From: an uncultured Acidobacteriota bacterium
GTDB taxonomy: Bacteria; Acidobacteriota; Thermoanaerobaculia; Multivoradales; UBA5704
Assembly: GCA_963757335.1 (NCBI GenBank)
Contig: CAVWRJ010000021.1
Location: 256,853 to 320,852, forward strand
DNA length: 64,000 nt
Direction: 5' to 3'
Shown here: in pieces, positions 13,768 to 62,886 of the stretch
How the letters are laid out: every line of letters starts with the position of its first letter
Position numbering within the stretch: the first letter of the stretch is position 1
Notes under the pieces: generated by a model
The model's database searches: none
Told to the model about the DNA's origin: nothing
The model's input: only the letters and a program-made list of their open reading frames with translations
Translations under genes and position numbers: made by a program

Positions 13768-13788
13768 GTGTCCTCCTGGGACGACGAG

Positions 13789-23601: not shown

Positions 23602-23885
23602 GCTCCTGAGAGCAGCAGGTCCTCAGCCTGATTGGGATCGGCGGCATCGGCGGGATCAACCCGCCTGGAAGCCCCGAAGGGGCAAAGGCATGTAGCCTGG
23701 GGCGCAAGCCCCAGGTGAGAGACAAAAGAGATCCAGCCCCGAAGGGGCGACGGAAAGCCCGCCACTGCCGTCGCCCCTTCGGGGCTTTGAATTCAATAGG
23801 TGGATCCTGTCCAGGGGCTTGCGCCCCTGGCTACATGCCGTCGCCCCCTCCGGGGCTACTACTGTTGGCTACCCGCCACCGAGAC

Positions 23886-38753: not shown

Positions 38754-40313
38754 CAGCGTGTGGCCGTGCTCGCAGACCTCGGAGAGGAGCCGGGAGAGGG
38801 TCTCGGGGTCGACCGGCTTCACCAGATAGGTATTGAACCCCGCCTCCATGGCCCGGCCGCGGTCCTCCGGCTGGCCGTAGCCGGTCATCGCGATGAGGCA
38901 GGGGGAGTTACCGTTCAGGTTGGCGCGGATACGGCGCGCCACCTCGTTGCCGTCGAGACCGGGGAGGCCGATGTCGATGAGCGCCACGTCGGGCGGCGAG
39001 GTCAGGGCTCGTTCGAGCCCGATCGGGCCGTCCTCGGCGACCTCCACCCGGTAGCCCCAGATCTCCAGCAGGTCGCGGAGCGACTCCCGGCCGTCCTGGT
39101 TGTCCTCGATGACGAGGATGCGCAGGCCCTGGCCGGAGGCGGTCCCGGCCGCCGTCAGCTGGGGGAAGGCGCAGGGGTGAGAGGTCTCGGCGCCGCCCTG
39201 GCGCCGCGGCAGGCGGACGGTGAACTCGCTGCCCCCTCCCGGGCCGGGGGAGGCCGCCGACACCCGCCCGCCGTGCAGCTCGACCAGGCTGCGGACCAGG
39301 GGGAGACCGAGCCCCAGGCCACCCTGCGAGCGTGGGATCGAGCTCTCGACCTGGGTGAAGAGGTCGAAGACCCGCGGCAGCATGTCGGTCGGGATGCCGA
39401 TGCCGCTGTCGGTCACCCGGATCACCGCCTCCCCCCCCACCGTCCCCGCCGAGATGGCGATCTGGCCGCCCGGCGGCGTGTACTTGATGGCGTTGTGGAG
39501 CAGGTTCGAGACGATCTGCTCCAGCCGCACCGGGTCGCCTTCGACCTCGACCGGCTGGGTCGTGACCTCCAGGGTCAGGTGCTGGCGCTCGGCCTGCGCC
39601 GCCGTGCCGAGCTCGCGCAGGCAGCGCTCGACGACCTCCTGGAGGTCGACCGCCTGGGCTTTCAAGGTGATCTTCCCCAGGGTGACCCGGGAGATGTCGA
39701 GGAGGTCGTCCACCATCCGCGCCAGGTGCCGGGTCTGGCGGTCGATGACCCCGCGCTGGCGGACCTCCGATTCGTCCGCCGAGCCGATCCGCTCGAGGAC
39801 CGAGTGGGCGTTGCGGATGGCCGCCAGCGGATTTCTGAGCTCGTGGCCGAGCATGGCGAGGAACTCGTCCTTCCGGCGGTCGGCCTGGGCCTGGCTGCGC
39901 AGGAGGTCGCGCACCTCGTACTGGCGGCGGCGGGCGCGCAGCGCCGCGTGGCAGGCCGAGACCAGGGTCTTGACCCGCACCGGCCGTTCGAGGATCGTCG
40001 AGTTGCCGAGCGGTTCGAGCGTCGCGAGGACGTCGTCGGTCGAGTCGCGGCGGGTGAAGACGACGAGCGGCAGGTCCGACCACGGCCCCTCGCTGCCGAG
40101 GACGTCCAGGAGGTGGTTCACGGTCTGCGGCGACAGGGCCTCGTCGGCGAGCACTGCCATGCCGGCGCCGCTCGGGACCTCGCGGCAGAGCCCGTTCAAG
40201 TCCTCGCAGGGGATCGCCGTGAAGCCGGCGCGGACGAGCACCTCGCAGGTGAGCACCGCGTCCCGGCCGGTGGGGGCGAAGACGAGGACCCTCTCTTCGG
40301 AGCGATCCGTCAT
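38742..40313 (-). CDS. hybrid sensor histidine kinase (REC-like N-term, HisKA, HATPase_c, C-terminal REC)
   Basis: H-box FLAMLGHELRNPL; N, G1 and G2 boxes (HNAIKYTPPGG, DSGIGIP, GGLGLGL); C-terminal REC with D in ALIDIGLPGLDG. Confidence 0.85.
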   Translation of the reverse strand: MTDRSEERVLVFAPTGRDAVLTCEVLVRAGFTAIPCEDLNGLCREVPSGAGMAVLADEALSPQTVNHLLDVLGSEGPWSDLPLVVFTRRDSTDDVLATLEPLGNSTILERPVRVKTLVSACHAALRARRRQYEVRDLLRSQAQADRRKDEFLAMLGHELRNPLAAIRNAHSVLERIGSADESEVRQRGVIDRQTRHLARMVDDLLDISRVTLGKITLKAQAVDLQEVVERCLRELGTAAQAERQHLTLEVTTQPVEVEGDPVRLEQIVSNLLHNAIKYTPPGGQIAISAGTVGGEAVIRVTDSGIGIPTDMLPRVFDLFTQVESSIPRSQGGLGLGLPLVRSLVELHGGRVSAASPGPGGGSEFTVRLPRRQGGAETSHPCAFPQLTAAGTASGQGLRILVIEDNQDGRESLRDLLEIWGYRVEVAEDGPIGLERALTSPPDVALIDIGLPGLDGNEVARRIRANLNGNSPCLIAMTGYGQPEDRGRAMEAGFNTYLVKPVDPETLSRLLSEVCEHGHTLSKA

Positions 40314-41875
40314 GCGAGGGTACCCGCAGTCTCCTCGATCGGTGGGTCGAGCGGCGGGATGGCCTCGCCGGTGTAGACCGGCTGGCCGGTCAGGATTCCG
40401 TTGAAATCGCGCAGCTGCCGCCCGACCTGAAATCCGGGCGGGTGGATGCGGCACTCGCGCACCGCCTTCTCGTGGGCGCCGGTGCGTTTCTTGACCACCG
40501 AGATCGCATGGCGGACCTCGCCGAAGGACTCGAAGTAGCGGAGCAGAATGACGTTGTCGGCGAGGTACGAGAGATCGACCGGCGATTCGAGCCCCTGCCC
40601 GACGAGCCCGTTCTGGGCCATGATGAGGAGCGTCACCGCTCCCTGCTGGGCGAGGAAGGAGAGCATCTCGTGCAGGTGGAGGGTCAAGAAGCGCTCCTCC
40701 GGCATGGCGTTCCTATAGCCGTTCAGGCTGTCGAGCACGACCAGTCGGGTGCCCTGGACGACCCCCTGGCAGACCTCCTGCGAGAACTCGCCGGGCGACA
40801 TCTGGGCGGGATCGAACTGGCGCAGGATCACCCGGCCGCTCTTTAGGTGCTCCTCGAACTTCATCTCCAGCCCCTCGGCGCGGAGCAGCCAGTTCTCCGG
40901 CGTCTCGTCGAAGGCGTAGATGGCGACCCGCTCGCCGCGCTCGGCGGCGGCCAAGGCATACTGCATGGCGAGAGTCGACTTGCCGACCCCCGAGGGGCCG
41001 AGGAGCATCGTGCTCGTGCCGCGCTCGAGCCCGCCGCCGACGAGCGAATCGAGCGCCGGCACGCCGGAGGAGATCGCCTCGCGGACGAACTGCCGTTTCT
41101 GGCCCGCCGCGATCAGTCGGGGGTAGACGACCAGGCCCCCGGGCTCGATGTTGAAGTCGTGGTAGCCGTCGTGAAAGTGGATGCCGCGCACCTTCTGCAC
41201 CTTGAGCCGCCGGCGCTGACCGCCATACTCGGGGGCGAGGTGCTCCAGGGTGAGCACGCCGTGGGTCAGGCTCTGGAGCTGGAACTCGGTTCCCGGCAAG
41301 GTGCGGTAGTCGAGGAGGAGCACCGTGCAATGCCGGCCGGTGAAGTAGTGCTTCAAGGCGAGGACCTGCCGCCGGTAGCGGAGCGAATCGCGGGCCAGCA
41401 TGCGGATCTCGGAGAGCGAATCGAACACCACCCGCCGGGGTTTGACCGCCTCGACCGCTTCGAGCACCGTCCGGGTGGTCTCCGAGAGCTCGATCTCGGA
41501 GGGGTGGAAGAGGGTGTACTGGGAATCCGCCTTCAAGCTCTCCTCGGCGGTCTGCAGGTCGCAGATGGTGATGCCGTCGAGATCCCAGCCGTGGGAATGC
41601 GCGACATCGCGCAACTCCTCCTCAGTCTCCGAAAGAGTGGCGTAGACGCCGGTCTCGCCCTTCCTCACCCCTTCGAGTAGAAATTGCATGGCGAGGGTGG
41701 TCTTCCCCGCCCCCGGATCGCCTTCGATCATGTACATCCGGTTGTGCGGCAGCCCGCCGCCCAGCACCGCATCCAGGCCGGCGATCCCGGTTGCGGCCCT
41801 CGGCAGCTGGTCGCTCTTCGGCCGCTTCCTATAGGTCGCTACGCCCGCGGCCACCGTGCTCTGTTCGCCGGTCAT
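40310..41875 (-). CDS. KaiC-like double RecA-domain ATPase
   Basis: Two Walker A motifs (GDPGAGKTTLAMQF and GPSGVGKSTLAMQY). ATG at 41875 preceded by GGGGGAGGAG. ATGA overlap with the downstream kinase gene. Confidence 0.85.
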   Translation of the reverse strand: MTGEQSTVAAGVATYRKRPKSDQLPRAATGIAGLDAVLGGGLPHNRMYMIEGDPGAGKTTLAMQFLLEGVRKGETGVYATLSETEEELRDVAHSHGWDLDGITICDLQTAEESLKADSQYTLFHPSEIELSETTRTVLEAVEAVKPRRVVFDSLSEIRMLARDSLRYRRQVLALKHYFTGRHCTVLLLDYRTLPGTEFQLQSLTHGVLTLEHLAPEYGGQRRRLKVQKVRGIHFHDGYHDFNIEPGGLVVYPRLIAAGQKRQFVREAISSGVPALDSLVGGGLERGTSTMLLGPSGVGKSTLAMQYALAAAERGERVAIYAFDETPENWLLRAEGLEMKFEEHLKSGRVILRQFDPAQMSPGEFSQEVCQGVVQGTRLVVLDSLNGYRNAMPEERFLTLHLHEMLSFLAQQGAVTLLIMAQNGLVGQGLESPVDLSYLADNVILLRYFESFGEVRHAISVVKKRTGAHEKAVRECRIHPPGFQVGRQLRDFNGILTGQPVYTGEAIPPLDPPIEETAGTLA

Positions 41876-42008
41876 GCTGACACTCCTCCCCCCAGAAGAT
41901 GACCGCACAATCCGAGGTGGGCGGACCTCGGGCCTATGCGGCTGAGTCTATCGCTTTCCGGCTATGCAAATCGGGTGCCGGAGATGCCGGCGAGGCATGA
42001 GCCGGGTT

Positions 42009-48273: not shown

Positions 48274-51200
48274 CTGCGTCCCGTCCATCTCACCGTCGAG
48301 GGTCTCGCGTGCTTCCGGGAGAAGCAGGAGATCGACTTCCGCACGCTCGAGCTCTTCGCCATCTCGGGGCCGACGGGAGCCGGTAAATCGACTCTCCTGG
48401 ACGCGATCACCTTTGCGCTCTATGGCGAGATCCCCCGGGTCAACCATCAGAATCGGACCGAGATGATCTCGGCGGCCCGCGACCGGGTCACCGTGGTGCT
48501 GGATTTCGACGTCGGCGCGAGCCGCTACCGGATCGCACGGACCCTCAAACGCAATGGGGCGCAGATGGTTCGCCTGGAGGAGCACGACGGGGTTGGCGGC
48601 AAGGGCTCCAGGAAGAATCTGGCCGACCAGGTTCGTACCGCGACCGATCAGATGGTGCGGATCCTCGGGCTCGGTGCGCCGGCGTTCCTGCAAGCCGTGG
48701 TTCTGCCGCAAGGCGAGTTCGCGAGGTTCCTCCGAGCGCAACCGAGAGACCGGCGCAGCATGCTCCGCACGCTGCTTCGACTCGACGTCTACGAGCGGAT
48801 GCGGGAACGGGCGCAGCGTTCGGCGGCGGCAAAGAAGGGCACGGTCGATTCGCTTCTGAAGCTCCTTGCGGACGAGTACGCCGGCATCGACGAGGCCGCT
48901 GTTGCCGACCTTGAGACGGAGCACGCCCGGGTCGCCCGGTCGCTCGAAGCCGCGAGAAAGAAACGGGACGACATCCAGGCGACACTCGCCCGGCAGCGCG
49001 GCCAGCACGCGAAAACTCGCGAGCTTCGAGAGGTCGAAGAGAGGCGAGCCGCCCTAGAGAAGCAGGCCGAGCAGGTGAGCCGTGAGCGAGCGAGGATCGA
49101 GGCGGCGGCCCGGGCGGTGCCCCTGTTGCCTCTGCTCCAGGAAGCGGCCCGCGCCGCCGCCGCCGCGAAGACGGCGACCCAGGCGGCAGACGTTGCCAAG
49201 GCCCACCATGACTCAGGAGAGATGGATTGGCAGAAGAAGGCTGGCGCCCAGAAGTCAGCGGAAAAGGCCGCCCAAGCGATCCCGACGATTCGTGAGCAGG
49301 TGGCTCGCCTCAACCAGGTGCTCGGTCGGCTTCCTGAACGAGAGCAGCTCCAAGCGGCGATCGAGCGACAGACGCAGGGTGTCAAGGCTCTCGAAGTCGA
49401 GCTGTCCGCGCTCGCTTCGACGGTTGAATCGGCGAAGGCCGTGCAAGCGCAACAGCAGAGAGCCGTCGATTCGGCTCGGCAAGCCGCGGCGGCCGCCGGC
49501 TATGACCCGGAGCTGGACGCGCTCTTCGGAGAGTGTCCGCGACCGAGCGGTCGAGCTTGGCGCTCTGCGCCGGAGCGCTGCCGAGCGCGGCCTTCCGCTC
49601 GCTCGGCAGCGTAAAGCGGTGGAAGAGCAGGCTGGGGAGATCGAGCTGCGGAAGGAGAAGGCGGAGTCTGCCAGGAGGTCCGCGGAGGAGGCCCAGCGCG
49701 GCTTCGAGGCAGCAGAGGAGGCGCTCTCTCTCGCCCACCGCCTGAACGAGGCCCATCACCTCCGCCAGGGGTTGGTTCCCGGCGAACCCTGCCCGGTGTG
49801 CGAACAGCTCGTGGAAACACCCCCTCCGGCCGATCCGGTGCCCGAGCTCGAAGCTGCCAGTGCCGCGCTCCAAGGGGCGCGGGAGAAGCGGAAAGCGGCC
49901 GACGCGCTCGCCCGGCAGATCGAGGCTCTCTGGACGGGCGAACAGGCGAGGCTCCAGGCCGCTCGGCAGAGCCTCGCCGAGCTGGAGGAGCGCTGCGCCG
50001 AGCTGCAAGCTCGCGTCGCCGCCGGCGAGGAAGGGATCTATCGAACGCTCGGCGACCGCGCTCCAGCCGGGGATGCGCTCATCGAGATCGGGATCGAGGC
50101 CTGGATCGAAACCCGCATCGCGGCGCTCGCCAGGAGCCGCAAGGCGAACGACGAAGCGAAGGCGCAACTGGCGACGGCGGAACGGACCCTGGAGAGAGCC
50201 AGGGCCGAGGAGGCCACCGCGCGGGATCGGCTCGGCGAGAGGGAAGCGTCGCTCAAGCGGTTGGAAGAGGAGCGCGGCAGGAGCCTCCTACGGCTCACGA
50301 CGTTGGAGGCCGAGATCCATGCCGTCACCGAGTCTGCCGATCCGGCTGCCGAGGCGAGAAGCTTGGAGGAGCAGATCCGGCAACTGGAAGCGGCCCTCAA
50401 GGCGGCCAACGAGGAGGCGGCAGCCTCCCAGAACCGACGGATGGCGGCCCAGGAGGCGCAACGGCTGACCGCCGAAGCTGCCAGGGCCGCTCGTGAGGAC
50501 GCCACAGAGAGAGCGGAGAGCCGGGATTTGGGAATTGCGCGCGCCGGCTTTGCCGACGAGGCCGCCGTCCGCGGGGCCCTCTTGGACGATGCCACCGCCA
50601 CCCGGCTCCAGGAGCAGGTCCACAGGTATGCGCAGGACCGCCACGCCGCCGAGGCGCGTGCGGCTACGCTGCGAACCGAGTTGGGGGAGGAGCGAGTGTC
50701 CGACGAACAGTTGGCGGCCGCCGAGACGCTCGCGGCGGAATGGACCACCGAAGTGGAGACCGCGCTCGGTCAGGAAAAGAAGCTCGAAGAGCAGATCGGG
50801 CGGATGAAAGAGCGGCTCGAACGGGGAAAAGAGCTCCGCCTCAAGCTGGAAGTCGAGGCGGCGGCTCTCCGCGTCTACGACCTCCTGGCCGGCGACCTGC
50901 GAAGCGACAAGTTCCAGGCGTATGTCTTAGAGGAGGTGTTCACCGAGCTGGTAGCGGGCGCCTCGGCCCGGCTGCTCAAGTTGACCGGGGAGCGTTACTC
51001 CCTGGAGTTCAACGCCGACGAAATCAAAGTCGTCGATCACGACAACGCCGACGAAACGCGGATCAGCGATACCTTGAGCGGCGGAGAGACCTTCCTGACC
51101 TCGCTGGCTCTCGCCCTGGAGCTCAGCGATCAGGTGCAGCGTGCCGTCGGCGCGGTGAATCTCGACAGCCTGTTCATCGACGAGGGTTTCGGCACTCTCG

Positions 51201-51364
51201 ATCCCGACACTCTCGCGCTGGTCGCCGAGACCCTCCAGGGGCTGCGGGTGGGGGGGCGGATGGTCGGCATCATCACCCACATCCCGGAGCTGCGAGACGA
51301 ATTCGCCCAGCAGGTGATCGTGACCAAGCGCCAGGGCTACTCGACCGTCGAGGTCCGCGGGTAG
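48274..51364 (+). CDS. sbcC: exonuclease SbcC (Rad50-like ATPase with CxxC zinc hook); at least one frameshift near 49535; start codon uncertain (CTG directly after the sbcD stop)
   Basis: Walker A GPTGAGKSTLLDAI, long coiled coil, zinc hook GEPCPVCEQ, C-terminal signature LSGGETF and D-loop LFIDEGFGTLD. Confidence 0.85.
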
Positions 51365-51407: not shown

Positions 51408-54400
51408 TCACACTTGGAGGAGCTTCCGCAGCTGCTCTAAGCTCGCCGGGTGCGAGAAGTAGCTGATGTGGTCGCACGCCACCTCCCGTGTGTCCGGCAT
51501 CTGCTTCCACTTCGCGCCCAGACTGCCGATGCTCTTCACGCTCACCGCGATGTCGTTGGGCTCGAAGAGGAACGCCACGGATGTCGTCTTGTGGAGGACC
51601 TTCTTGAGCAGCCGCTCCACGCGCGGCCCGTCCGCGGCCGTGGCGAGCGAGGTGTTCCCCGCGAGCACCACGTAGGGGATACCGGGATCGTCGAGGCTCC
51701 CGAGCGAGGTCAGGAACGCCGAAGCGGGCCTCATCTCATCGAGCGAGTTGTCGATCTTCTCCAGGCCGGCAAAGAGCGACGCAATCGCCGACGCCTCCCA
51801 CGAAATCTTCGTCAGGCCGTTCAAGGCCAGCGAGGCCGCGCCGGTGAGCCAGTCCTCGATCGTCGACCAGCTCGATCCGGCGTTCGGAGTGCCACAAAGA
51901 ATGACGCGCGAGACGATCTCCCGGCCGCCGAGCTTCTCCATGAACCAGCGCGACACGAGCCCGCCCATGGAGTGCGCCACCAGCACGACCTGCTTGCCGT
52001 GCCCAGGGGCGAGGCCGCATGCCGCGAGACGCTCCTGCAAACCCTCGGCGTTTTCCTCGATCGTCGTGTTCAGGTTCTCATAGTCGAACGCAAGGTAGAG
52101 GTCGCCTGGCGCCGGCGCAAGGCGCGCCCCCATCGCTCGCGTGTCCCCGATGATCCCGTGGACGAAGACGACGATACGCCGCGCCTTCGCCACCTTCGCC
52201 TGGAGGTGCGCGAGGTCCGTGTCGTAGGTCACCTTCCCCTGCTCGTCCCATGCCGCCTCGGCGAGCAGCGGGTACCTGTAATCCTTCCCGAGCAGCGGCG
52301 AGGTGAACTTCTGGAAGAGGATCCGGATCGAGCCGCCCAGAGACCGCGAGCGGTTCTTCATCGGGTATGGGAGGCGGGAGATCGTCACCATCGTCTTCCC
52401 TCTCCGGGCACCGCCGCTGCCGAGGATGAGATAGTCCTCCCCGTCGTACGAGACGGCGAGGACGATGTCGCCGTCGGCGGCGACGCTGGGAAGGGTCACT
52501 TCGAGCGGCTGGTCGGGTGTGACGACGGTGGGGTCGACGACCTCGCTCAGCTCGAGGACCGAGAGCGGCGCCGAGGAGCCCCGGCCCGCCGAGAAGACGA
52601 TCGTCTCGCCGGAGTCGGGGGTGCGGAAGAGGGGCGGCAGTATCGCGGCGCCGACGTCACCCCGCGTCTCCGAGAGCGTCGTCAGGCGCGCACGAGAGCG
52701 CAGCGTCGGGTGCGCCCCGATGGCGACTCCCGCCCCGACCTCCGCCGTCGTCGCCGCATTCACTTTGACCCCCGCCGCCGGCTCCACCGTCGTCACAAAG
52801 AGGGTCGTCGTCTGGAAGTCGCGGATCTCGTCGTCGTCGGAGGCCGCCGAGATCGTTCGCCTGCAGCCGCGGGCCAGCAGTCGCTCAAGGGTGTTGGCGA
52901 TCGACTGCGGAGCGGCCCGCCTCATCGGCGCGCCGAGCGCGGAGAGCGCCGCGGGGCTGATGTCGAAGGGAGCCGTGCTGACGATCACCTTCAGGATGTC
53001 CTGCGACTCCGTCCTCCCTTCCCGTCGTAAAGGCCCCGGAATCTGCGCCTTGAGCGCCCTCCCGTCGAGCGCCCACCCCGCGGCGTCGCCGGGCCGCAGC
53101 TTCAACACGCCGCCCTTGACCAGCCCCGGGTCGCACGCGTACAACTCGTCAAGCGCCAGCATGCCGAAGTGCAGGTCTCGCTGTCCGCGGTTCCTGAAGC
53201 GCACGCGGAACTTCGGCGCCACGAGCCCCTTGTCGGTGCGGGTGGCCGTGAGCCGGAGGCTCGGGCCGCCCAACTCGCGCTCCCCCACCTGGTCGGCGAG
53301 CACCGTCACCTCGAATTCGGACGGGTCGATCGCGCTGACCGAATTCTCCAGGTCCCGGAAGTGCAGCCACTGTGCGATGTGCTCCGCGTTCTTCACCCCC
53401 TCCTCGGCGGTCGAGGCCGGCGCCACCAGTTCCCGTCCGTCCGCGCCCCGGAGCAGGCGAAAGCTCCCTGCGGCACATTCGAGGATGAAGTCGGCGCGCT
53501 CCGTGGCCTCCGCCACGTAGGGGCTGCCGGTCAGCGCCCCGCGCGCCGCCGCCACCTCTCCCGCGTCTCCGGTCAACCGGACGGAGTGGGACGACAGGGG
53601 CGTTGTCGTGAGCAACGCCTTGTAGGTTTCACCGCTCTTCACCGTGCCGCGCGTGACGCACAGCCGGCTTCTCGCCCCCTGCACCTCCACGACATCCGCC
53701 ACCGCGACCGCGTCGCTTGCCTTCGCCGTCGCCTTGAGCTCGCCGAGCGCGTCGAAGAGCGCGACGGTGGCGGATTCTCCGGCGACCGGCGCGGGGACGC
53801 CGTGGATCGTCCCGCCGTCCATCCACCAGTCGCCGTCCGACTCCGCCGTGTAGAACGCCTTCGCACGCGACTGGATTGCCCCCTCGATGAACGAACGATC
53901 GAGGTCGGCATCCGTCGTCGCCTCGACCTGCGGCTCCTGCCCCGGGACGTTAGCGATCACCCTCGCGCGCACTCTCGCCGCCAGGTCGCGATAGGTCGGC
54001 GTGCCGGGGCTCTGGCGGAGCGCCTCGAGCAGGAACCACGAGAACGCACCGCGGTGCACTCCCCCGCTGTAGTACTCGGTCGCCTCCTGATCGTCGCAGC
54101 AGGCCGCGAGGAGGACGTGCCGGCCGTCGTCGCCCAAGTCCCAACCGCTCTCGCTCGCGCGCGCCGAGGCGATCGCCTGCACCTCGGGGAGGAACGATGC
54201 AAGCGGCCGGTCGCGCACGTCGAGGGGGAAGCGGCGGACCTTCGCGCCACTCGCCAGCGCCCGCGTGCCGGACCCCGAGTGACACGAATCGAGAATGACG
54301 ACGACGTGCGCGCCCGTCGCCGCGAGCGGCCGGAGGAGCGCCGCGAGTTCCTTGTCGGCGAGGTCCCATCCGCCGGGCTGCCGGCTGTCCCAGAGGACGA

Positions 54401-54716
54401 GCGTCTCGTCGAGCCGATCGGGCTCGACGGTCCAGAAGATCTCGGGGGATCGCTCGCGCGAGCCGTGGCCCGCGTAGTAGAAGAGCGCTGTGTCCGCGGC
54501 GGTCACCTTTCCCAGGTGCGCGCGGAAGGCGGCGATGACGCTCTCGCGCGTCGCCTGCTCGTCGACCAGGGTACGCAGCCGCAGGCGCTCCGGCCTCACC
54601 CGCAGCGTGAGGAGCTCCGCGAACGCCGCCACGTCATTGCGACAGCCCGCCAGCCGGTGCGCAGGATCGAGGTACTTGTCGATCCCCACGAGAAAAGCGT
54701 GAAGGACTTCAGACAT
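51408..54716 (-). CDS. 1102-aa multidomain protein: N-terminal caspase-like peptidase C14 domain, about 600-aa middle region of unknown fold, C-terminal alpha/beta-hydrolase (lipase/esterase-like)
   Basis: Caspase His in LFYYAGHGS and Cys in VVILDSCHSGSG. C-terminal VVFVHGIIGD plus nucleophile elbow LVAHSMGGL. RBS GGGAGG 6 nt before the ATG. Confidence 0.7.
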   Translation of the reverse strand: MSEVLHAFLVGIDKYLDPAHRLAGCRNDVAAFAELLTLRVRPERLRLRTLVDEQATRESVIAAFRAHLGKVTAADTALFYYAGHGSRERSPEIFWTVEPDRLDETLVLWDSRQPGGWDLADKELAALLRPLAATGAHVVVILDSCHSGSGTRALASGAKVRRFPLDVRDRPLASFLPEVQAIASARASESGWDLGDDGRHVLLAACCDDQEATEYYSGGVHRGAFSWFLLEALRQSPGTPTYRDLAARVRARVIANVPGQEPQVEATTDADLDRSFIEGAIQSRAKAFYTAESDGDWWMDGGTIHGVPAPVAGESATVALFDALGELKATAKASDAVAVADVVEVQGARSRLCVTRGTVKSGETYKALLTTTPLSSHSVRLTGDAGEVAAARGALTGSPYVAEATERADFILECAAGSFRLLRGADGRELVAPASTAEEGVKNAEHIAQWLHFRDLENSVSAIDPSEFEVTVLADQVGERELGGPSLRLTATRTDKGLVAPKFRVRFRNRGQRDLHFGMLALDELYACDPGLVKGGVLKLRPGDAAGWALDGRALKAQIPGPLRREGRTESQDILKVIVSTAPFDISPAALSALGAPMRRAAPQSIANTLERLLARGCRRTISAASDDDEIRDFQTTTLFVTTVEPAAGVKVNAATTAEVGAGVAIGAHPTLRSRARLTTLSETRGDVGAAILPPLFRTPDSGETIVFSAGRGSSAPLSVLELSEVVDPTVVTPDQPLEVTLPSVAADGDIVLAVSYDGEDYLILGSGGARRGKTMVTISRLPYPMKNRSRSLGGSIRILFQKFTSPLLGKDYRYPLLAEAAWDEQGKVTYDTDLAHLQAKVAKARRIVVFVHGIIGDTRAMGARLAPAPGDLYLAFDYENLNTTIEENAEGLQERLAACGLAPGHGKQVVLVAHSMGGLVSRWFMEKLGGREIVSRVILCGTPNAGSSWSTIEDWLTGAASLALNGLTKISWEASAIASLFAGLEKIDNSLDEMRPASAFLTSLGSLDDPGIPYVVLAGNTSLATAADGPRVERLLKKVLHKTTSVAFLFEPNDIAVSVKSIGSLGAKWKQMPDTREVACDHISYFSHPASLEQLRKLLQV

Positions 54717-54773
54717 CGTCGACCTCCCGAGATGCCGCCGGGCGCCCTCGCGACCCTACGGAGGGATGTTATT
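54717..54773. promoter_or_regulatory. 57-bp divergent intergenic region between the caspase-hydrolase gene and the CHAT operon
   Basis: Both start codons have strong Shine-Dalgarno sequences (GGGAGG / GGAGGGA). The promoters must lie within or overlap this segment. Confidence 0.3.
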
Positions 54774-56063
54774 ATGCCTCTTATCATGAATATTGGTAGA
54801 TCCGGGGCAGGTATCGACGAGCTTACAGTCGACATCCAGAGCCAAGGCGACCGCACGTTCGTCAAGGTCGAGGATCAGAGTCTCGAATTTGAGGTTCCGT
54901 TCTCGCGCGAGGAGGTCGAGAACGCGCTGGCCGCCGCCTCCCCAAACCACGCCTCAGCTCAGGGGTTACCGTCGCTCGGCTCGACACTCTTCAGCACCCT
55001 GTTCTCGGGCGACCTCGGTCGCGCGCTCTGGCAACGGATGGCGGAGGTGGAGCGTCTTGACCGCGGGCTGCGGCTCCGCATCCTGTCGAACTCGGAGCGC
55101 GCGCAGCACCTGCCCTGGGAGCTCCTGTTCGACCCGTCGCGCGGCGATTTCATGGCGCTCTCCGGCCGCATCGCTCTTGTGCGCACGCGCCCCGAGGGGT
55201 ACAAGCACGAGGAGTCGCCCACGCCGCTCGCGCAGCTGCGCATCCTGGCCGTCGAGGCCGACACGACCGGTGGCAGCCTACGCACGAACGATGACATCGA
55301 GACGCTCGAGCAACTCGCGAGCATGTCCGGCTTGGTCGACTTGACGGTTCTCCGCAGCGCGACGACAGCAGCCCTCGAGCAGGCACTCGAGAAGGGTCCG
55401 TTCCACGTCTTTCACTTCGCAGGGACGGGCGAGGTGCTACCGAAAACGTCCAGGAAGGGTGGCCTCAAGCAGGCGCTCCGGCTGATCGGGTCGACGCCCT
55501 CTGGAACGACATCCTCCGGGGTGCTGCTCAACCGGCACGAGCTCGGCGAAATGCTGCGGCGAGCCAACGTCCGTCTCGCCGTGCTGAATGCCTGCCGCTC
55601 TGACTGGATCGCGCGCAGCGTGGCGCGGTACGTCCCTGCGGTCATCGGGCTGAGGGAGGACGCAGAGATCGAGTCTTGCTTGCTGCTCTGCCGGTCCCTG
55701 TACCAGTCACTCCTGCTGCAGCGGCAGCCGCTCGACCTCGCCGTGACGGCGGCTCGCCAGGCGATGAATCTCGGCGCGCGGCCGGGGATCGCCGACTGGT
55801 GCAAGCTGATCTTTTACCTGCAGCAGAAGGACGGGACTTTCCTTGCGGCGGAGGAGTCGGCACGGCTGGCGGCGGCGAGTCACTCCGCGTCGCCGAAGAG
55901 CAAGGAGTACGCGAAGCTCGCGCGCCTGCTCGATGTCCACGAGGCCAACCTCAACGCCCTGACGAAGGGAGTCGGCGTCGGTGCGACCAACGCACCGAGC
56001 GAGCTCGTGGCCTCGCTGCAGCAGAAGATAGACGAGATTAAACGGCAGCTCGGGGAGGCGTAG
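54774..56063 (+). CDS. CHAT-domain protein with degenerate catalytic histidine (HxAxHG becomes FHFAGTG), Cys retained
   Basis: FHVFHFAGTGEV and LAVLNACRSD in the CHAT fold order. RBS GGAGGGA. Confidence 0.6.
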   Translation: MPLIMNIGRSGAGIDELTVDIQSQGDRTFVKVEDQSLEFEVPFSREEVENALAAASPNHASAQGLPSLGSTLFSTLFSGDLGRALWQRMAEVERLDRGLRLRILSNSERAQHLPWELLFDPSRGDFMALSGRIALVRTRPEGYKHEESPTPLAQLRILAVEADTTGGSLRTNDDIETLEQLASMSGLVDLTVLRSATTAALEQALEKGPFHVFHFAGTGEVLPKTSRKGGLKQALRLIGSTPSGTTSSGVLLNRHELGEMLRRANVRLAVLNACRSDWIARSVARYVPAVIGLREDAEIESCLLLCRSLYQSLLLQRQPLDLAVTAARQAMNLGARPGIADWCKLIFYLQQKDGTFLAAEESARLAAASHSASPKSKEYAKLARLLDVHEANLNALTKGVGVGATNAPSELVASLQQKIDEIKRQLGEA

Positions 56064-56070: not shown

Positions 56071-57864
56071 ATGACGGAAGGCGATGCGGTAACGCGACTC
56101 CGGTTGCTGACCGGACGGCTCGCCGAACGGAGCGCGCAGCTGCTGGCGATGCGCAGGCTTGTGGAACCGTTGCGCGCCGGAGGGCTCGAGCCGGTCGAGG
56201 GGGAGATTGGTCTTCTCGGCGAGATGGAGGAAAAGCTGCAAGCAGCCGTCGCCCTCCTGGCGAAGACGGAAGACGACCAGCCGCTCGACGCGCTGAACGA
56301 GCAGCTCGACGAGCTGCTGAATGACGTCAGCTGGGAGCTGGAAGAGGACTTGCGGCCCGACCTCACGCGGAAGCACCAGCGGCAGGAGGATCTGCTCCGC
56401 GAAGTCGGCCTGGACCTAAAGACGTGGGAGGGGCGCGTCACGGAGCTCGCGAAGAAGATCGAGACCGCGCGCTTCGAGGGGGCGCCGTTCTCCGCCTTGG
56501 AGGGGGACCTGGAGCGCGCGCGCCGGCTCCTCGCCAGCATCCGCTCGGCGATCTCCGATCGGCTGTACCGCGGCCTTCCCGAGATCCAGGAGTCGGCGAA
56601 GGAGGCGATGCGGCTTCTTGAGGAGAACGTCGCCAAGGCTCAGCCGCAGGTCGAGAAGGTGAAGAAACTGGTGAAGCAGGCCGACCTCCTGATCATGCAG
56701 GTGGGCCTCGCGGATGGCGACTACGAGTATCGCGTGCTGCTGCGGTCGGCCGACCGGATCCAGACCCGCGGGATCAACATCATCCAGGCCGTACGGCGGT
56801 TGAGCCAGGCGGACCGCAACTACATGAAGGACCTGTTGGCGCAGCTCACCAGCAGGATGAACGAGGAGATCCGGGCCGTACACGCCGCTGCCCACCCCGA
56901 GTCACCCAGCCAGTTGCGGACCATCCTCCCCGCCGAAGATTCCTCTGGCGCTCCGGCGCGCAATACGACCGAAACGCTCGCCGTGCTCGGCGAGTTCATG
57001 TACCGGCTGGTGATCCCCGGAGAGATGCAGCGATATTTGCAACGCGAGGCTTGGTCGTTCAGCATCACGACGAACGACCTCGAGCTTCCGTGGGAGCTGA
57101 TTTCGTTCGAGCGACCGGAGGAGGAATCGAACGCCCCGGCGTATCTCTGCCTCGAGCGCTGCATCTCGCGCATGCCGCTGGGCGGCGTCTTCCCGCCGCC
57201 GCCCCGCCGCCGCTCGGCGGGGGCGCCACGGAAGCGACGGATGCTGCTCATTCACTCCGACCCTAAGGGGGACCTACCGGCCGCGGCTCGGGAGGCGGAC
57301 GCCATCGCTAACGCGCTGTCGGACGAGTTGGAGATCGACCGCGTCGATCCCGATAGGGCGACTAACGCGAACCTCAACGACATCCTGATGGGGACGCCGT
57401 TCGACTTCCTCCACTACGCGGGGCACGCCTACTTCGACAAGAAGGACCCGAACCTATCCGGGCTACAGCTCAAGGATGGCCTGCTCACGGCGGAGAAGAT
57501 CCGGCGGCTGAACAAGGGAGGCTCGCTGGTCTTCCTCAACGCCTGCGAGTCGGGGACGGTGGCGCGCGACAGCGAGGCGCAGCAAGTGTCGTACCTGCTG
57601 ACCAACCCTGAGCCCGTGGTCGGGCTGGCGTCGGCTTTCGTCTACAGCGGGGCCCTCGGGTGCGTCGGATCGCTGTGGCCCGTGTACGATCGCCCGGCAG
57701 CGGAGCTGGCGGTGAAGTTCTACGAGCACGTGCTGTTAGGCGAGCCGACCGGCGAGGCGCTGCGCAAGGCACGCAATGACATCCGGGCCGCGTATCCGCG
57801 GGAGGTGACGTGGGCGGGGTACGTCCTGTACGGGGATCCGACGTTCCGTATCACCGAGACATGA
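56071..57864 (+). CDS. CHAT-domain peptidase with a roughly 350-aa N-terminal coiled-coil/helical domain
   Basis: DFLHYAGHAYF (His-His pair) and LVFLNACESG (Cys). 7-bp gap after the upstream gene. Confidence 0.75.
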   Translation: MTEGDAVTRLRLLTGRLAERSAQLLAMRRLVEPLRAGGLEPVEGEIGLLGEMEEKLQAAVALLAKTEDDQPLDALNEQLDELLNDVSWELEEDLRPDLTRKHQRQEDLLREVGLDLKTWEGRVTELAKKIETARFEGAPFSALEGDLERARRLLASIRSAISDRLYRGLPEIQESAKEAMRLLEENVAKAQPQVEKVKKLVKQADLLIMQVGLADGDYEYRVLLRSADRIQTRGINIIQAVRRLSQADRNYMKDLLAQLTSRMNEEIRAVHAAAHPESPSQLRTILPAEDSSGAPARNTTETLAVLGEFMYRLVIPGEMQRYLQREAWSFSITTNDLELPWELISFERPEEESNAPAYLCLERCISRMPLGGVFPPPPRRRSAGAPRKRRMLLIHSDPKGDLPAAAREADAIANALSDELEIDRVDPDRATNANLNDILMGTPFDFLHYAGHAYFDKKDPNLSGLQLKDGLLTAEKIRRLNKGGSLVFLNACESGTVARDSEAQQVSYLLTNPEPVVGLASAFVYSGALGCVGSLWPVYDRPAAELAVKFYEHVLLGEPTGEALRKARNDIRAAYPREVTWAGYVLYGDPTFRITET

Positions 57865-57992
57865 ACTGCAGGCGACGCCTCCCGGCGTTCGCGACAGTGC
57901 TCTTTTCGAGTCGTCACCCCAATCCAGCGCCGCCGCAGCTCTCTAGCAATGATCGCCATCGCCGCTGAATTAGGGTGTAACTGCTGTCCCGT

Positions 57993-58411
57993 CAGCCTCG
58001 GCCCGGCTGCTCAAGTTGATCGCGGAGCGTTACTCCCTAGAGTTCAACGCCGACGAAATCAGGGTCGTCGATCACGACAACGCCGACGAAACGCGGATCA
58101 GCGATACCTTGAGCGGCGGAGAAACCTTCCTGACCTCGCTGGCTCTCGCCCTGGAGCTCAGCGACCAGGTGCAGCGTGCCGTCGGCGCGGTGAATCTCGA
58201 CAGCCTGTTCATCGACGAGGGTTTCGGCACTCTCGATCCCGACACTCTCGCGCTGGTCTCCGAGACCCTCCAGGGGCTCCGGGTAGGGGGCCGGATGGTC
58301 GGCATCATCACCCACATCCCGGAGCTGCGAGACGAATTCGCCCAGCAGGTGATCGTGACCAAGCGCCAGGGCTACTCGACCGTCGAGGTCCGCGGCGCCT
58401 CTGATTCGTAG
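57993..58411 (+). pseudogene. duplicated 3' fragment of sbcC, about 97% identical to 50979-51364
   Basis: Alignment of the two segments shows about 10 substitutions in 420 bp. Encodes ...RYSLEFNADEIRVVDHDNADETRISDTLSGGETF...VEVRG with no N-terminal part. Confidence 0.8.
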
Positions 58412-61332: not shown

Positions 61333-62886
61333 ATGCCGACGCTTCCCGGAGACTGCTCGATGCGCCGTACCGCTCTCCCTCTCGCCCTCTCTCTCACCCT
61401 TCTCGCCGGGCCTGCCGGTTCCGCCGGCCTGCCGGCCGTCCCCGGCCCGCTGCCCCATCCTGCCACGGCGCCTGCCACGGGGCTGCCGCCGGGGGTTCAC
61501 CCCCTGGCGCCGAAGCTCGCCCGGCGGATGGACAAGTTGGTGCAGGCGGCGGAGCGGGCGCGGGGGCTGAAGCTCAAGCATCCGGTACCCTACGGCGCAC
61601 TCGACGAGAAGGGATTGAAGGCCAAGGTGGCCGAGACCCTGGCGGAGGACCTGCCGCCCGAGCAGATGCGCGCCTTGGAAGTGAGCCTCCGGGCGTTCGG
61701 GCTCCTGCCGGAGGGGGAGAGCGCGGGGAAGGTCTACCGCGACCTCCTCGGCCAGCAGGTCGCCGCCTTCTACGATCCGGAGAAGAAATACCTCGCCATG
61801 GTCGAGCGCCCGGGGAAGAGCGGCGAGGCCGAGCTGGACAAGACCTTCGGCGCCGATCTCGCCCGCCGGGCCCAGGAGGGGATCGTCGTCCACGAGCTGA
61901 CCCACGCCATCGACGACCAGAGCTTCGATCTCGGCCGGATGGCGAAGAGCGACCCCTTGTCGGACGGCGCCGCCGCCTTCCTCGGCCTGGTCGAGGGGGA
62001 CGCGACCCTCACCATGTTCGACTTCGTCCTCGGCAAAAGGGTCGCCGAGGTCCCCGGTTTCGGCTTGAGCGTGAGCGAGATGATGAAGGACCCCGGCCAG
62101 CTCGCCGCCATGTCCCCCGACCTCCCGGGGAGCGCCGGGCTCGCCGACGCCCCGGTCTGGTTCCGCGACACCCTCCTGTTCAGCTATCTCCAGGGGTTCG
62201 CCTTCTGCCTCCACCTGGAGCGCCGGGGCGGCAGCAAGCTCCTCGACTACGCCTTCGCCAAGGACCCGCCGCGCTCGACCGAGCAGATCCTCCACCCCGA
62301 AAAGTGGCTCGACCGGAGAGACGACCCGATCGAGCTCGCCTGGCCCGACCTGACCGCCGCCCTGCCGGGCTGGAAGAAGGCCGCCGAGGGGCAAATGGGG
62401 GAGGAGGGGATGCTCATCCTTCTCCGCCAGGCGGGGAAGGGGCCGGAGGTGGCGGTAGCTTCGGCAACGCCAGCCGCGCCAGCGACTCCAGCGCCCCCGG
62501 CACCTCCGGCGGCTCTGGTGACCCCGGCGGCCGCCGCGGCCGGCTGGGGGGGCGACCGTTTCGCCGTCTACGAGAAGGCGGGCCAACGCCTGCTCCTCTG
62601 GCTCACCGAGTGGGACGGCGAGTCCGACGCCACCGAGTTCCAGACCGCCGCGGCCCGGCTGGGGGAGGACTGGCAGGTGGTGCGCTCCGCTCCCACCCGG
62701 GTCGTTCTCTCCCGGAGTCCGAAGGGCGCCCTGGCGCCGGAGCCGCTGGCCGCGGCCGAGGCGGCGCTCGCCGCGGTTCAGGCCGTCCGGCCGGCGAACA
62801 AAAACATCGATCTGAAGGAGCTGGGGATCGCCCCGACGCCGGCATCGCCGACATCGGACGGAAGCGAAAGCCGCCCCGGACCTTAG
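61333..62886 (+). CDS. secreted protein with HExxH motif (putative zinc metallopeptidase) and Pro/Ala-rich linker
   Basis: Signal peptide; VVHELTHAIDDQ; no family assigned. Confidence 0.45.
   Translation: MPTLPGDCSMRRTALPLALSLTLLAGPAGSAGLPAVPGPLPHPATAPATGLPPGVHPLAPKLARRMDKLVQAAERARGLKLKHPVPYGALDEKGLKAKVAETLAEDLPPEQMRALEVSLRAFGLLPEGESAGKVYRDLLGQQVAAFYDPEKKYLAMVERPGKSGEAELDKTFGADLARRAQEGIVVHELTHAIDDQSFDLGRMAKSDPLSDGAAAFLGLVEGDATLTMFDFVLGKRVAEVPGFGLSVSEMMKDPGQLAAMSPDLPGSAGLADAPVWFRDTLLFSYLQGFAFCLHLERRGGSKLLDYAFAKDPPRSTEQILHPEKWLDRRDDPIELAWPDLTAALPGWKKAAEGQMGEEGMLILLRQAGKGPEVAVASATPAAPATPAPPAPPAALVTPAAAAAGWGGDRFAVYEKAGQRLLLWLTEWDGESDATEFQTAAARLGEDWQVVRSAPTRVVLSRSPKGALAPEPLAAAEAALAAVQAVRPANKNIDLKELGIAPTPASPTSDGSESRPGP

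What the first reader, a model, noticed from the sequence alone, without database searches (positions are those of the whole stretch)
51408..54716. Giant caspase(C14) - unknown 600-aa region - alpha/beta-hydrolase fusion protein
The N-terminus has both catalytic signatures of clan CD caspases (AGHGS His, DSCHSG Cys). The C-terminus has a lipase/esterase-type GxSxG elbow (AHSMGG) after a VFVHGIIGD strand. Roughly 600 residues between them match nothing I recognise. I do not know of this architecture as a characterised system, though caspase-like proteases fused to effector or sensor domains are a recurring theme in prokaryotic NTP-dependent conflict systems. One possibility is a self-processing pro-toxin whose lipase is released or activated by proteolysis. 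It is one of the few long ORFs in this window without a frameshift.
Basis: partly seen in the sequence, partly recalled or inferred. Interest (0 to 1): 0.8.

Follow-up and report, generated by a model that had tools for sequence, protein, structure and literature searches.

The report
Fused caspase–lipase-like protein beside CHAT proteases
This is a real 1102-residue bacterial protein that joins a caspase-type protease to a lipase-like hydrolase through four uncharacterised β-rich domains; it belongs to a widespread, untested family that nearly always sits next to a second caspase-type protease gene, which suggests a protease-triggered cell-death or defence module.

Summary
The gene lies on the minus strand at 51408-54716 and encodes 1102 aa.

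- **N-terminus (1-280):** a metacaspase-like Peptidase_C14 domain.
- **C-terminus (836-1102):** a DUF7379 α/β-hydrolase, closest by sequence to Bacillus LipA-type lipases.
- **Catalytic residues:** His84, Cys145, Asp1055 and His1083 are invariant in 40 diverse homologues, and Ser916 is kept in 39.
- **Middle (281-835):** four β-rich domains with no Pfam match, no PDB sequence match and no specific structural match. They are nevertheless conserved in more than 760 protein clusters.

The architecture is not rare. At least 561 species genomes in about nine phyla carry it, and a 2020 orthocaspase review lists the fusion. No experiment on it was found.

The main new result is context. At least 54 of 71 assessable loci have a second clan-CD protease gene within 7 kb: caspase–nSTAND1–WD40, TPR–CHAT or CHAT. 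In this window a CHAT pair is transcribed divergently, 57 bp away, and one member lacks the catalytic His.

Published work shows CHAT→caspase cascades and caspase-activated α/β-hydrolase zymogens. I therefore infer a protease-gated, two-enzyme death effector. The hydrolase is not homologous to the published LcHydrolase, so this is a new variant of a known kind. Interest is moderate.

The parts
51408..54716 (-). Whole gene: 1102-aa caspase – β-rich middle – α/β-hydrolase protein (stop codon 51408-51410)
   Evidence: An identical protein (P0001) is on record.
53877..54716 (-). Residues 1-280: Peptidase_C14 (metacaspase/orthocaspase-like) domain. Catalytic His84 is at 54465-54467 and Cys145 at 54282-54284. 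The S1-pocket Asp143 is at 54288-54290.
   Evidence: Pfam E 2.7e-18. PDB profile hits to metacaspases at E about 1e-19. Foldseek hits to 3bij, 6w8r and 8a53 at E about 1e-12. H84, C145 and D143 are kept in 40/40 homologues.
54249..54272 (-). Residues 149-156: disordered loop just after the catalytic Cys, containing invariant Arg152. It corresponds to the metacaspase p20/p10 linker and is a candidate processing site.
   Evidence: pLDDT below 50 at 148-156. R/K at position 152 in 40/40. That cleavage occurs here is inference.
52212..53876 (-). Residues 281-835: conserved middle region of four β-rich domains. A is 285-435 (53412-53864), B is 465-600 (52917-53324), C is 633-692 (52641-52820) and D is 717-833 (52218-52568).
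52857..52859 (-). Invariant Arg620 in a low-confidence loop between domains B and C. Naturally truncated paralogues end just after this region, so it is a candidate cleavage site or module boundary.
   Evidence: pLDDT below 50 at 617-625. R in 40/40. Truncated paralogues of about 670 aa.
52578..52583 (-). Invariant Arg712-Gly713 in the linker before domain D. It is a candidate R↓G cleavage site by analogy with LcHydrolase.
   Evidence: R in 40/40 and G in 39/40. The R↓G motif is described in Evans et al. 2025. This is analogy only.
51411..52211 (-). Residues 836-1102: DUF7379 α/β-hydrolase, lipase-like. It has an oxyanion HG (His853-Gly854), the nucleophile elbow AHSMGG with Ser916 (51969-51971), Asp1055 (51552-51554) and His1083 (51468-51470).
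   Evidence: Pfam PF24096 and PF12697 above their cut-offs. PDB profile hits to B. subtilis LipA 1i6w/5ct8 at E about 1e-8. Triad kept in 39/40, 40/40 and 40/40.
54717..54773 (.). 57-bp divergent intergenic region between the target start codon and the start of the short CHAT gene; presumably a shared regulatory region.
   Evidence: The gap is 69-75 bp in orthologous loci L002 and L001.
54774..56063 (+). CHATs: 429-aa CHAT-domain protein that lacks the catalytic His (Thr here, Ser or Met in orthologues) but keeps the Cys. It is a predicted pseudo-protease.
   Evidence: Pfam CHAT E 2.3e-11. Gene call. Alignment.
56071..57864 (+). CHATl: 597-aa protein with an N-terminal region of about 290 residues and a C-terminal CHAT protease domain that has intact His and Cys. 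It is the predicted partner or initiator protease.
   Evidence: Pfam CHAT E 2.7e-36. Catalytic motifs YAGHA and LNACESG. The pair is conserved in L001 and L002.

Best explanation
The gene encodes a cytoplasmic effector with two enzymes, belonging to a protease-gated cell-death or conflict module.

**Shown**
- It is a real, conserved protein.
- It has an apparently active, metacaspase-like (probably Arg/Lys-specific) C14 protease at the N-terminus.
- It has an apparently active Ser-Asp-His lipase-like hydrolase (DUF7379) at the C-terminus.
- The two are joined by four conserved β-rich domains.
- Across phyla the gene sits next to a second clan-CD protease gene.

**Inferred mechanism**
1. The protein is made as a latent zymogen. 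The β-rich middle holds one or both catalytic domains inactive.
2. A neighbouring sensor-linked protease is switched on by an invader or stress signal. In this window that protease is the CHATl/CHATs pair. In most relatives it is caspase–nSTAND1–WD40 or TPR–CHAT.
3. The neighbouring protease cleaves the effector at conserved basic residues in flexible linkers. The candidates are Arg152, Arg620 and Arg712-Gly713.
4. Cleavage unleashes the caspase-like protease, the hydrolase or both. The hydrolase probably acts on membrane lipids or other esters.
5. The cell dies or arrests (abortive infection or programmed cell death).
For: **Real gene with active-looking enzymes**
- Gene and motifs.
- Domain calls above the curated thresholds.
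- Catalytic His84, Cys145, Asp143, Asp1055 and His1083 kept in 40/40 homologues, Ser916 in 39/40.
- Metacaspase fold and LipA-type lipase similarity.
- No signal peptide or convincing TM segment.

**Linkage to a second clan-CD protease**
- A CHAT pair lies 57 bp away, transcribed divergently.
- The same pair is present in L001 and L002.
- 22 of 36 large neighbours carry nSTAND1 and 20 of 36 carry C14.
- The local HMM screen found a second clan-CD protease gene within 7 kb in 53 of 80 loci (71 have enough flank). L001 is a further case missed by ORF calling, giving at least 54 of 71.
- About 30 of these lie immediately downstream on the same strand.
- Independently annotated plasmid loci in Rhizobium, Deinococcus and Anabaena show the same pairing.
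- Fusion proteins join the target architecture to C14–nSTAND1.

**Precedents**
- Obligate caspase and α/β-hydrolase pairing in conflict systems (PMC7159879).
- A caspase-like protease activates an α/β-hydrolase zymogen by cleavage at R↓G, which causes cell death (bioRxiv 10.1101/2025.11.14.688446).
- SAVED-CHAT cleaves and activates a PF00656 caspase (bioRxiv 10.1101/2023.06.23.546230).

**Candidate cleavage sites**
- Invariant basic residues lie in low-confidence loops.
Against: - No experiment exists for this family, so cleavage, toxicity and substrate are all inferred.
- The hydrolase is not detectably homologous to LcHydrolase beyond generic α/β-hydrolase motifs. It also lacks the insert of about 175 residues that carries LcHydrolase's cleavage sites.
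- The window locus has no NTPase or other recognisable sensor. No PADLOC system matches. The surrounding genes are housekeeping genes.
- About a quarter of the loci with adequate flanks show no second protease within 7 kb.
- The direction of any cascade (who cleaves whom) is not determined.
- In the AF2 model the loop carrying Asp1055 has low confidence, so the geometry of the hydrolase active site is not established.
Confidence: 0.5

Rival explanations
1. The protein is a self-processing pro-toxin. Its own caspase domain cleaves it in cis, or in trans between copies, and releases or activates the hydrolase. The neighbouring protease genes would then be regulators, or would act downstream.
For: Metacaspases and orthocaspases commonly process themselves after Arg/Lys in the linker that follows the catalytic Cys (established knowledge). 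Here that loop is disordered and holds invariant Arg152, Arg161, Arg168 and Arg170. About a quarter of the loci have no second protease nearby.
Against: This does not explain the strong, cross-phylum linkage to a second clan-CD protease that carries sensor-type domains. Both published precedents use trans-activation.
Confidence: 0.2
2. The protein has a non-defence role. It would be a developmental, stress-response or programmed-cell-death enzyme of bacteria with complex lifestyles, or a dual-specificity degradative enzyme in which the α/β-hydrolase acts as a serine peptidase. It would not be triggered by phage.
For: The family is concentrated in filamentous cyanobacteria, Chloroflexota, Actinomycetota and Planctomycetota. 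The window context is housekeeping genes and no PADLOC system matches. The review PMC7475262 proposes 'dual specificity' for orthocaspases with an abhydrolase domain.
Against: Copies occur on plasmids, including next to an AbiEii toxin gene. The neighbours are STAND/WD40/TPR sensor-type proteins typical of conflict systems. The closest sequence relatives of the hydrolase are lipases, not peptidases.
Confidence: 0.15
3. The N-terminal caspase domain acts mainly as a homotypic adaptor. It would pair with the caspase domain of the neighbouring STAND protein, in the manner of an effector-associated domain, and recruit the hydrolase to an activated oligomer. On this view it would not itself act as a protease.
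For: Both partners carry a C14 domain in most loci. Caspase domains dimerise (established knowledge). The 'EAD principle' is described in PMC8195603.
Against: The catalytic dyad and the S1 Asp are invariant in 40/40 homologues, which argues for catalysis. The two caspase domains are only about 25-30% identical, with no special similarity to each other. In this window and others the partner carries CHAT, not C14.
Confidence: 0.1

Closest known systems
Caspase-like protease + α/β-hydrolase zymogen module (LcCaspase/LcHydrolase, Lysobacter capsici; Evans et al. 2025, bioRxiv 10.1101/2025.11.14.688446)
   Same: A clan-CD caspase-like protease is genetically coupled to a Ser-hydrolase of the α/β fold with lipase-like affinities. 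The proteases are linked to WD40 or STAND sensors. The motif pattern is similar: HG after β1, AHSxG at the elbow, PNDxxVS for the Asp.
   Different: Here the caspase and the hydrolase are in one polypeptide, separated by about 555 residues of β-rich domains, and a second protease is encoded next door. The hydrolase is DUF7379, whereas LcHydrolase hits no Pfam family, and hhalign gives only 19% probability. The insert with the R73/R117 cleavage sites is absent.
SAVED-CHAT → PCaspase proteolytic cascade of Haliangium ochraceum type III-B CRISPR (Steens et al., bioRxiv 10.1101/2023.06.23.546230)
   Same: A CHAT protease gene is clustered with a PF00656 caspase whose His/Cys lie at nearly the same positions (H79/C146 there, H84/C145 here). 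This gives experimental proof that a bacterial CHAT can cleave and activate a C14 caspase and so cause abortive infection.
   Different: No SAVED domain was found in the CHAT proteins, and no cyclic-oligonucleotide or CRISPR component was identified among the genes examined here. The target carries an additional hydrolase and a β-rich region. One of the two CHAT proteins is a pseudo-protease.
Caspase/α-β-hydrolase pairings and nSTAND1 systems in NTP-dependent conflict systems (Kaur, Burroughs, Iyer, Aravind 2020, PMC7159879)
   Same: That work predicted by comparative genomics that caspase-superfamily and α/β-hydrolase domains 'operate together'. nSTAND1–WD40 proteins with N-terminal caspase domains are the commonest neighbours of this family.
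   Different: In that work the hydrolase is a separate neighbouring gene in MoxR-vWA-VMAP systems. No MoxR, vWA or VMAP gene turned up among the genes examined here. In the passages I read, the fused architecture with the β-rich middle is not described.
Cyanobacterial orthocaspases with an Abhydrolase domain (Osc7112_0662, Cri9333_0714, Nos7107_1322; review PMC7475262)
   Same: Probably the same architecture, catalogued as p20-like caspase plus abhydrolase. Cyanobacterial full-length homologues dominate the family.
   Different: These are only listed in a survey of domain architectures. The review gives no analysis of the middle region, of gene neighbourhood or of function. I did not verify that those three locus tags belong to this family.
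Eukaryotic and bacterial metacaspases (Yca1 4f6o, AtMC4 6w8r, AtMC9 8a53, TbMCA2 4af8, GSU0716 3bij)
   Same: They share the fold, the His/Cys dyad, the DxCHSG motif and an acidic S1 pocket that implies Arg/Lys specificity.
   Different: None of them carries the β-rich region or a C-terminal hydrolase.

Membership tests
Peptidase C14 (clan CD; metacaspase/orthocaspase type) | Sequence match to the family profile above the curated threshold | tested here: met
   PF00656: 67 bits against a cut-off of 21.4, E 2.7e-18, residues 6-268. The PDB profile search hits metacaspases at E about 1e-19.
Peptidase C14 (clan CD; metacaspase/orthocaspase type) | Catalytic His-Cys dyad in the conserved motifs | tested here: met
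   His84 (YYAGHGS) and Cys145 (DSCHSG) are kept in 40/40 homologues.
Peptidase C14 (clan CD; metacaspase/orthocaspase type) | Caspase-hemoglobinase fold | tested here: met
   The AF2 model (pLDDT mostly 85-95 over residues 1-140) matches 3bij, 6w8r, 8a53 and MALT1 by Foldseek at E 1e-12 to 1e-7.
Peptidase C14 (clan CD; metacaspase/orthocaspase type) | Arg/Lys-specific proteolytic activity | not testable with these tools
   The Asp143 of DxCH, which lines the S1 pocket in metacaspases, is invariant. Specificity and activity need biochemistry.
α/β-hydrolase, DUF7379 (PF24096) / LipA-like lipase | Profile match above the curated threshold | tested here: met
   PF24096: 39.4 bits against 33. PF12697: 33.8 against 26.3. 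B. subtilis LipA 1i6w/5ct8 at E 1.5e-8 to 7e-8.
α/β-hydrolase, DUF7379 (PF24096) / LipA-like lipase | Ser-Asp-His triad with a nucleophile elbow and an oxyanion HG | tested here: met
   Ser916 (AHSMGG) is kept in 39/40, Asp1055 in 40/40 and His1083 in 40/40. His853-Gly854 is invariant.
α/β-hydrolase, DUF7379 (PF24096) / LipA-like lipase | Lipid/ester substrate | not testable with these tools
   This is inferred only from similarity to lipases. The substrate of even the characterised LcHydrolase is unknown.
LcHydrolase-type protease-activated α/β-hydrolase zymogen (Evans et al. 2025) | Homology to LcHydrolase (WP_060410396.1) | tested here: not met
   LcHydrolase hits no Pfam family, DUF7379 included. 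hhalign of A1 against LcHydrolase gives probability 18.6% and E 1.3e-3, covering only the elbow region.
LcHydrolase-type protease-activated α/β-hydrolase zymogen (Evans et al. 2025) | Two R↓G cleavage sites in a long insert between strand β1 and the nucleophile elbow | tested here: not met
   The segment 854-915 is 62 residues and contains no RG. In LcHydrolase the insert is about 175 residues and holds R73 and R117.
LcHydrolase-type protease-activated α/β-hydrolase zymogen (Evans et al. 2025) | Genetic coupling to a caspase-like protease | tested here: met
   The hydrolase is fused to a C14 domain and lies next to CHAT or C14 genes.
CHAT → PCaspase cascade (Steens et al.) | CHAT protease gene clustered with a PF00656 caspase gene | tested here: met
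   CHATs and CHATl lie 57 bp and about 1.35 kb from the target start. The pair is conserved in L001 and L002, and a CHAT gene lies in the same position in Rhizobium.
CHAT → PCaspase cascade (Steens et al.) | SAVED sensor on the CHAT protein and a cyclic-oligonucleotide source (type III CRISPR or CBASS) | tested here: not met
   Only the CHAT domain was detected in both proteins. No cyclase or CRISPR component was found among the window genes scanned. CRISPR arrays were not searched for specifically.
CHAT → PCaspase cascade (Steens et al.) | Cleavage of the caspase by the CHAT protease | not testable with these tools
   This needs a biochemical cleavage assay.
STAND-NTPase (nSTAND1) conflict system (Kaur et al. 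2020) | Adjacent STAND NTPase with a repeat-type sensor | tested here: not met
   This feature is not met in the window itself. Its neighbours are SbcD/SbcC on one side and the two CHAT genes on the other. The feature is met in most relatives: 22 of 36 large neighbours carry nSTAND1 and 19 of 36 carry WD40, and fusion proteins exist.

The most novel reading that the evidence does not exclude
This could be a bacterial initiator/executioner caspase cascade with a dual-warhead executioner.

- A sensor-linked clan-CD protease acts as the initiator. Here it would be a heteromer of an active CHAT and a conserved His-less pseudo-CHAT. Elsewhere it would be an apoptosome-like caspase–nSTAND1–WD40 protein.
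- The initiator cleaves a single polypeptide. That cleavage simultaneously releases an Arg-specific caspase and a membrane-directed lipase.
- The four family-specific β-domains would serve as a built-in inhibitor and as the docking platform for the initiator.

If true, this would be a previously undescribed way of coupling proteolytic and lipolytic killing in one zymogen.
Probability: 0.25. Interest if true: 0.7.

Novelty: new variant of a known kind. Interest (0 to 1): 0.5.

Why it matters
Protease-gated death effectors are emerging as a dominant logic in prokaryotic immunity, and they parallel eukaryotic caspase cascades. This family is large: at least 561 species genomes and more than 760 clusters at 50% identity. 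It spans about nine phyla.

It physically fuses the two activities that earlier work found only as neighbouring genes, and it is tightly linked to a second, sensor-bearing caspase-type protease. That makes several questions directly testable:
- whether bacteria run true initiator→executioner caspase cascades outside CRISPR or CBASS contexts;
- what the caspase-associated α/β-hydrolases actually hydrolyse;
- what the conserved, structurally unassigned region of about 555 residues does.

The general concept is already published, so the gain is a new and abundant variant rather than a new principle.

Tried and rejected
1. **Conserved small upstream partner.** The 29 ORFs of 280-430 aa flanking homologues share no family (A2). 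Rejected.
2. **Stand-alone DUF7379 proteins as evidence of a split system.** The short hits on long contigs are frameshift fragments of full-length genes in error-prone assemblies. Rejected.
3. **Alternative C-terminal effectors on the '1-646' homologues.** These are simply truncated paralogues of about 670 aa; one has a TM tail. There is no effector swapping.
4. **Homology to LcHydrolase.** Not supported.
5. **Special similarity between the target's caspase domain and its neighbour's.** Identity is only about 25-30%.
6. **Known defence system.** PADLOC gave only a generic 'caspase' model and a weak LmuA hit for the target, and nothing diagnostic for the neighbours.
9. **Literature on 'DUF7379'.** No papers were found.


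Full report
**1. Observation.** The reported interval 51408-54716 is an intact ORF, but it lies on the minus strand. It translates to 1102 aa, starting at the ATG at 54716 and ending at the TGA at 51408-51410. Third-position GC is 0.90, with the GC1>GC2 pattern of genuine genes in this DNA of about 68% GC. The long plus-strand ORF that overlaps it (53169-56063) is partly its antisense shadow. An identical protein is on record from a 580-kb contig, and the closest named relative (87% identity) comes from a Thermoanaerobaculia MAG. An Acido-Lenti-1 sRNA elsewhere in the window agrees with an acidobacterial origin.

**2. The end domains.** Pfam places Peptidase_C14 at residues 6-268 (E 2.7e-18). 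At the C-terminus it places DUF7379 (PF24096) and Abhydrolase_6, both above their curated cut-offs, along with weaker LCAT, PGAP1 and DUF676 lipase-type hits. NCBIfam gives only a sub-threshold 'caspase_w_EACC1' hit. PADLOC gives a generic 'caspase' model and a weak LmuA hit.

- A profile of 40 full-length homologues (A1) matches metacaspases in the PDB at E about 1e-19: Yca1, C. glabrata MCA1, GSU0716, TbMCA2, AtMC4 and AtMC9. Its C-terminal part matches Bacillus subtilis LipA-type minimal lipases at E about 1e-8, and these carry the same AHSMG elbow.
- Foldseek of the full-length AF2 model (pLDDT 79, pTM 0.65) returns the same metacaspases and MALT1 for the N-terminus, and thioesterases or esterases for the C-terminus.
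- In A1, His84, Cys145, the S1 Asp143, Asp1055 and His1083 are invariant, and Ser916 is kept in 39 of 40. Both enzymes therefore look catalytically competent.
- There is no N-terminal signal peptide. The only hydrophobic maximum lies inside the caspase core, so the protein is probably cytoplasmic.

**3. The middle region.** Residues 281-835 have no Pfam, NCBIfam or PDB sequence match.

- A dedicated AF2 model (pLDDT 82.8, pTM 0.77) and the full-length model show four mainly β domains: A 285-435, B 465-600, C 633-692 and D 717-833. They are joined by a long helix (437-454) and by flexible loops.
- Foldseek gives TM of at most 0.2. The region therefore has no specific structural homologue among solved structures.
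- It is nevertheless conserved, at 36-48% mean identity against 54-56% for the two enzyme domains.
- A profile of the region finds 2567 clusters (762 at E of 1e-30 or better) among 1.84 billion representatives. Nearly all of the best 150 have the same layout, with the middle at about 290-880 of a protein of 1100-1300 aa.
- Five loci carry naturally truncated paralogues that stop just after the B/C boundary, four of them at about 670 aa and one at 755 aa. This marks a module boundary near residues 620-650.

**4. Distribution.** They occur in Cyanobacteriota (the majority), Planctomycetota, Acidobacteriota, Chloroflexota, Actinomycetota, Bacteroidota and Gammaproteobacteria. Plasmid-borne full-length copies occur in Rhizobium, Deinococcus, Acaryochloris, Anabaena and Nostoc. 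NCBI names these proteins 'caspase family protein', 'alpha/beta fold hydrolase' or 'DUF7379 domain-containing protein'. A 2020 review of cyanobacterial orthocaspases already lists caspase+abhydrolase proteins. The word 'DUF7379' occurs in no paper of the library.

**5. Genomic context.** This is the main new finding.

- In the window the gene is transcribed divergently from two CHAT genes. The start codons of the target and of CHATs are only 57 bp apart. CHATs is 54774-56063 (429 aa) and CHATl is 56071-57864 (597 aa).
- CHATl has intact catalytic His and Cys. CHATs has Thr at the His position, and its orthologues in L001 and L002 have Ser and Met, while the Cys is kept. CHATs is therefore a conserved pseudo-protease.
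- The same pair flanks the orthologues in L001 (87% identity) and L002 (56% identity).
- Among 80 fetched loci, clustering of neighbours found one dominant partner: proteins of 1400-1900 aa lying immediately downstream on the same strand. Pfam shows these are Peptidase_C14–nSTAND1–WD40; of 36 large neighbours, 22 carry nSTAND1, 20 C14 and 19 WD40. A second class of neighbour is TPR–CHAT.
- With locally built HMMs, 53 loci have a second clan-CD protease gene within 7 kb, and 71 loci have at least 3 kb of flank on one side. L001 is a false negative of ORF calling in high-GC DNA, which brings the count to at least 54 of 71.
- Independently annotated records agree. In Rhizobium a CHAT gene is divergent, as in the window. 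In Deinococcus another 'caspase family protein' lies upstream. In Anabaena sp. 90 a 'CHAT domain-containing tetratricopeptide repeat protein' lies downstream, with an AbiEii toxin gene nearby.
- Giant proteins join the two partners in one chain. P0244 reads C14–middle–DUF7379–C14–nSTAND1–periplasmic-binding domain, and P0241 reads nSTAND1–C14–middle–…–WD40.
- No conserved small upstream partner exists.
- Apparent stand-alone hydrolases are frameshift fragments.
- The remaining neighbours in the window are housekeeping genes: a DEAD/ResIII helicase, SbcD, SbcC, a 5'-3' exonuclease, and further away AlaRS, pyruvate kinase and HtpG. No PADLOC system is recognised.

**6. Comparison with what is known.** Three published lines bear on function.

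- Kaur et al. 2020 noted that in MoxR-vWA-VMAP conflict systems a caspase-superfamily domain is 'always' accompanied by a neighbouring α/β-hydrolase gene. That paper also defined nSTAND1.
- Evans et al. 2025 showed that a caspase-associated α/β-hydrolase (LcHydrolase) is a zymogen. Its neighbouring caspase-like protease cleaves it at two R↓G sites, and this causes cell death. Those proteases are fused to WD40 or STAND sensors, and the substrate is still unknown.
- Steens et al. showed that SAVED-CHAT cleaves and activates a PF00656 'PCaspase' (His79/Cys146), giving an initiator/executioner cascade and abortive infection.

I tested membership in the LcHydrolase family and it fails. LcHydrolase hits no Pfam family, and hhalign against A1 gives only 18.6% probability over the elbow region. 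The long insert that carries its cleavage sites is absent here. The SAVED sensor of the Steens system is also absent. The window locus therefore works like these systems by analogy but is a member of neither.

**7. Proposed mechanism.** What is shown: the two enzymes look active, the middle region is conserved, and the gene is robustly linked to a second clan-CD protease that usually carries sensor-type domains. What is inferred is the following.

- The protein is a latent executioner. A signal-activated neighbouring protease cleaves it at conserved basic residues in flexible segments. In this window that protease is CHATl, perhaps as a heteromer with the pseudo-protease CHATs.
- The candidate sites are Arg152 in the disordered loop after Cys145, invariant Arg620 in the low-confidence B/C loop, and invariant Arg712-Gly713 before domain D.
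- Cleavage frees or activates the caspase and/or the lipase-like hydrolase, and the cell dies or arrests.

I put this at about 0.5. The rivals are cis self-processing (0.2), a non-defence developmental or stress role or a hydrolase that acts as a peptidase (0.15), and the caspase domain acting as a homotypic adaptor (0.1).

**8. Verdict.** The architecture is abundant and already catalogued, yet I found no experimental work on it. Its tight linkage to a second caspase-type protease, the conserved pseudo-CHAT partner, and the structurally unassigned four-domain middle are the points worth following up. It is best described as a new variant of the known protease-gated effector kind, of moderate interest (0.5).

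Noticed in passing
window 54774-56063 (+): The short CHAT protein next to the target has lost the catalytic His (Thr here, Ser and Met in the two orthologues) but keeps the Cys. It also has a C-terminal tail of about 80 residues that the CHATl proteins lack (not examined further). It looks like a conserved pseudo-protease paired with the active CHAT gene downstream.
   Followed up: partly
window 48463-49614 and 49082-51364 (+): SbcC appears to be split over two overlapping ORFs in different frames. The first has no recognisable N-terminal Walker A, and the second carries the SbcC Walker B. This suggests a frameshift, either an assembly error or a pseudogene.
   Followed up: no
window 23670-23715 (-): There is an Rfam match to the Acido-Lenti-1 sRNA (43.6 bits against a gathering score of 37), consistent with an acidobacterial origin of the contig.
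   Followed up: no
window 12818-15085 (-): A large two-module GT4 glycosyltransferase also matches PF20706, 'Family 4 glycosyltransferase in conflict systems' (E 3e-14).
   Followed up: no
window 40310-41947 (-) and 38742-40712 (-): A KaiC-like double RecA-type ATPase is followed by a hybrid histidine kinase/response regulator. The stop-to-stop ORFs overlap by about 400 nt, so the true starts or frames are unclear.
   Followed up: no
L075, L077, L078, L079, L080 (each match starts at 10001): These are naturally truncated paralogues (668-755 aa) with only the caspase and domains A and B. They end right after the conserved '…DDW…ITTVRP' segment. The L079 version adds a C-terminal hydrophobic, TM-like tail.
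   Followed up: partly
P0244 (2973 aa), P0241 (3279 aa), P0275 (2982 aa): These giant proteins fuse the target architecture to C14–nSTAND1, WD40, a periplasmic-binding domain or a peptidoglycan-binding domain. They could be true fusions or read-through gene calls.
   Followed up: partly
window 17232-19355 (+), 61333-62886 (+) and 57949-58404 (+): These are ORFs with gene-like GC3 (707, 517 and 151 aa) and no Pfam match. The 151-aa ORF lies directly downstream of CHATl and had a single tblastn match among the 80 loci.
   Followed up: no
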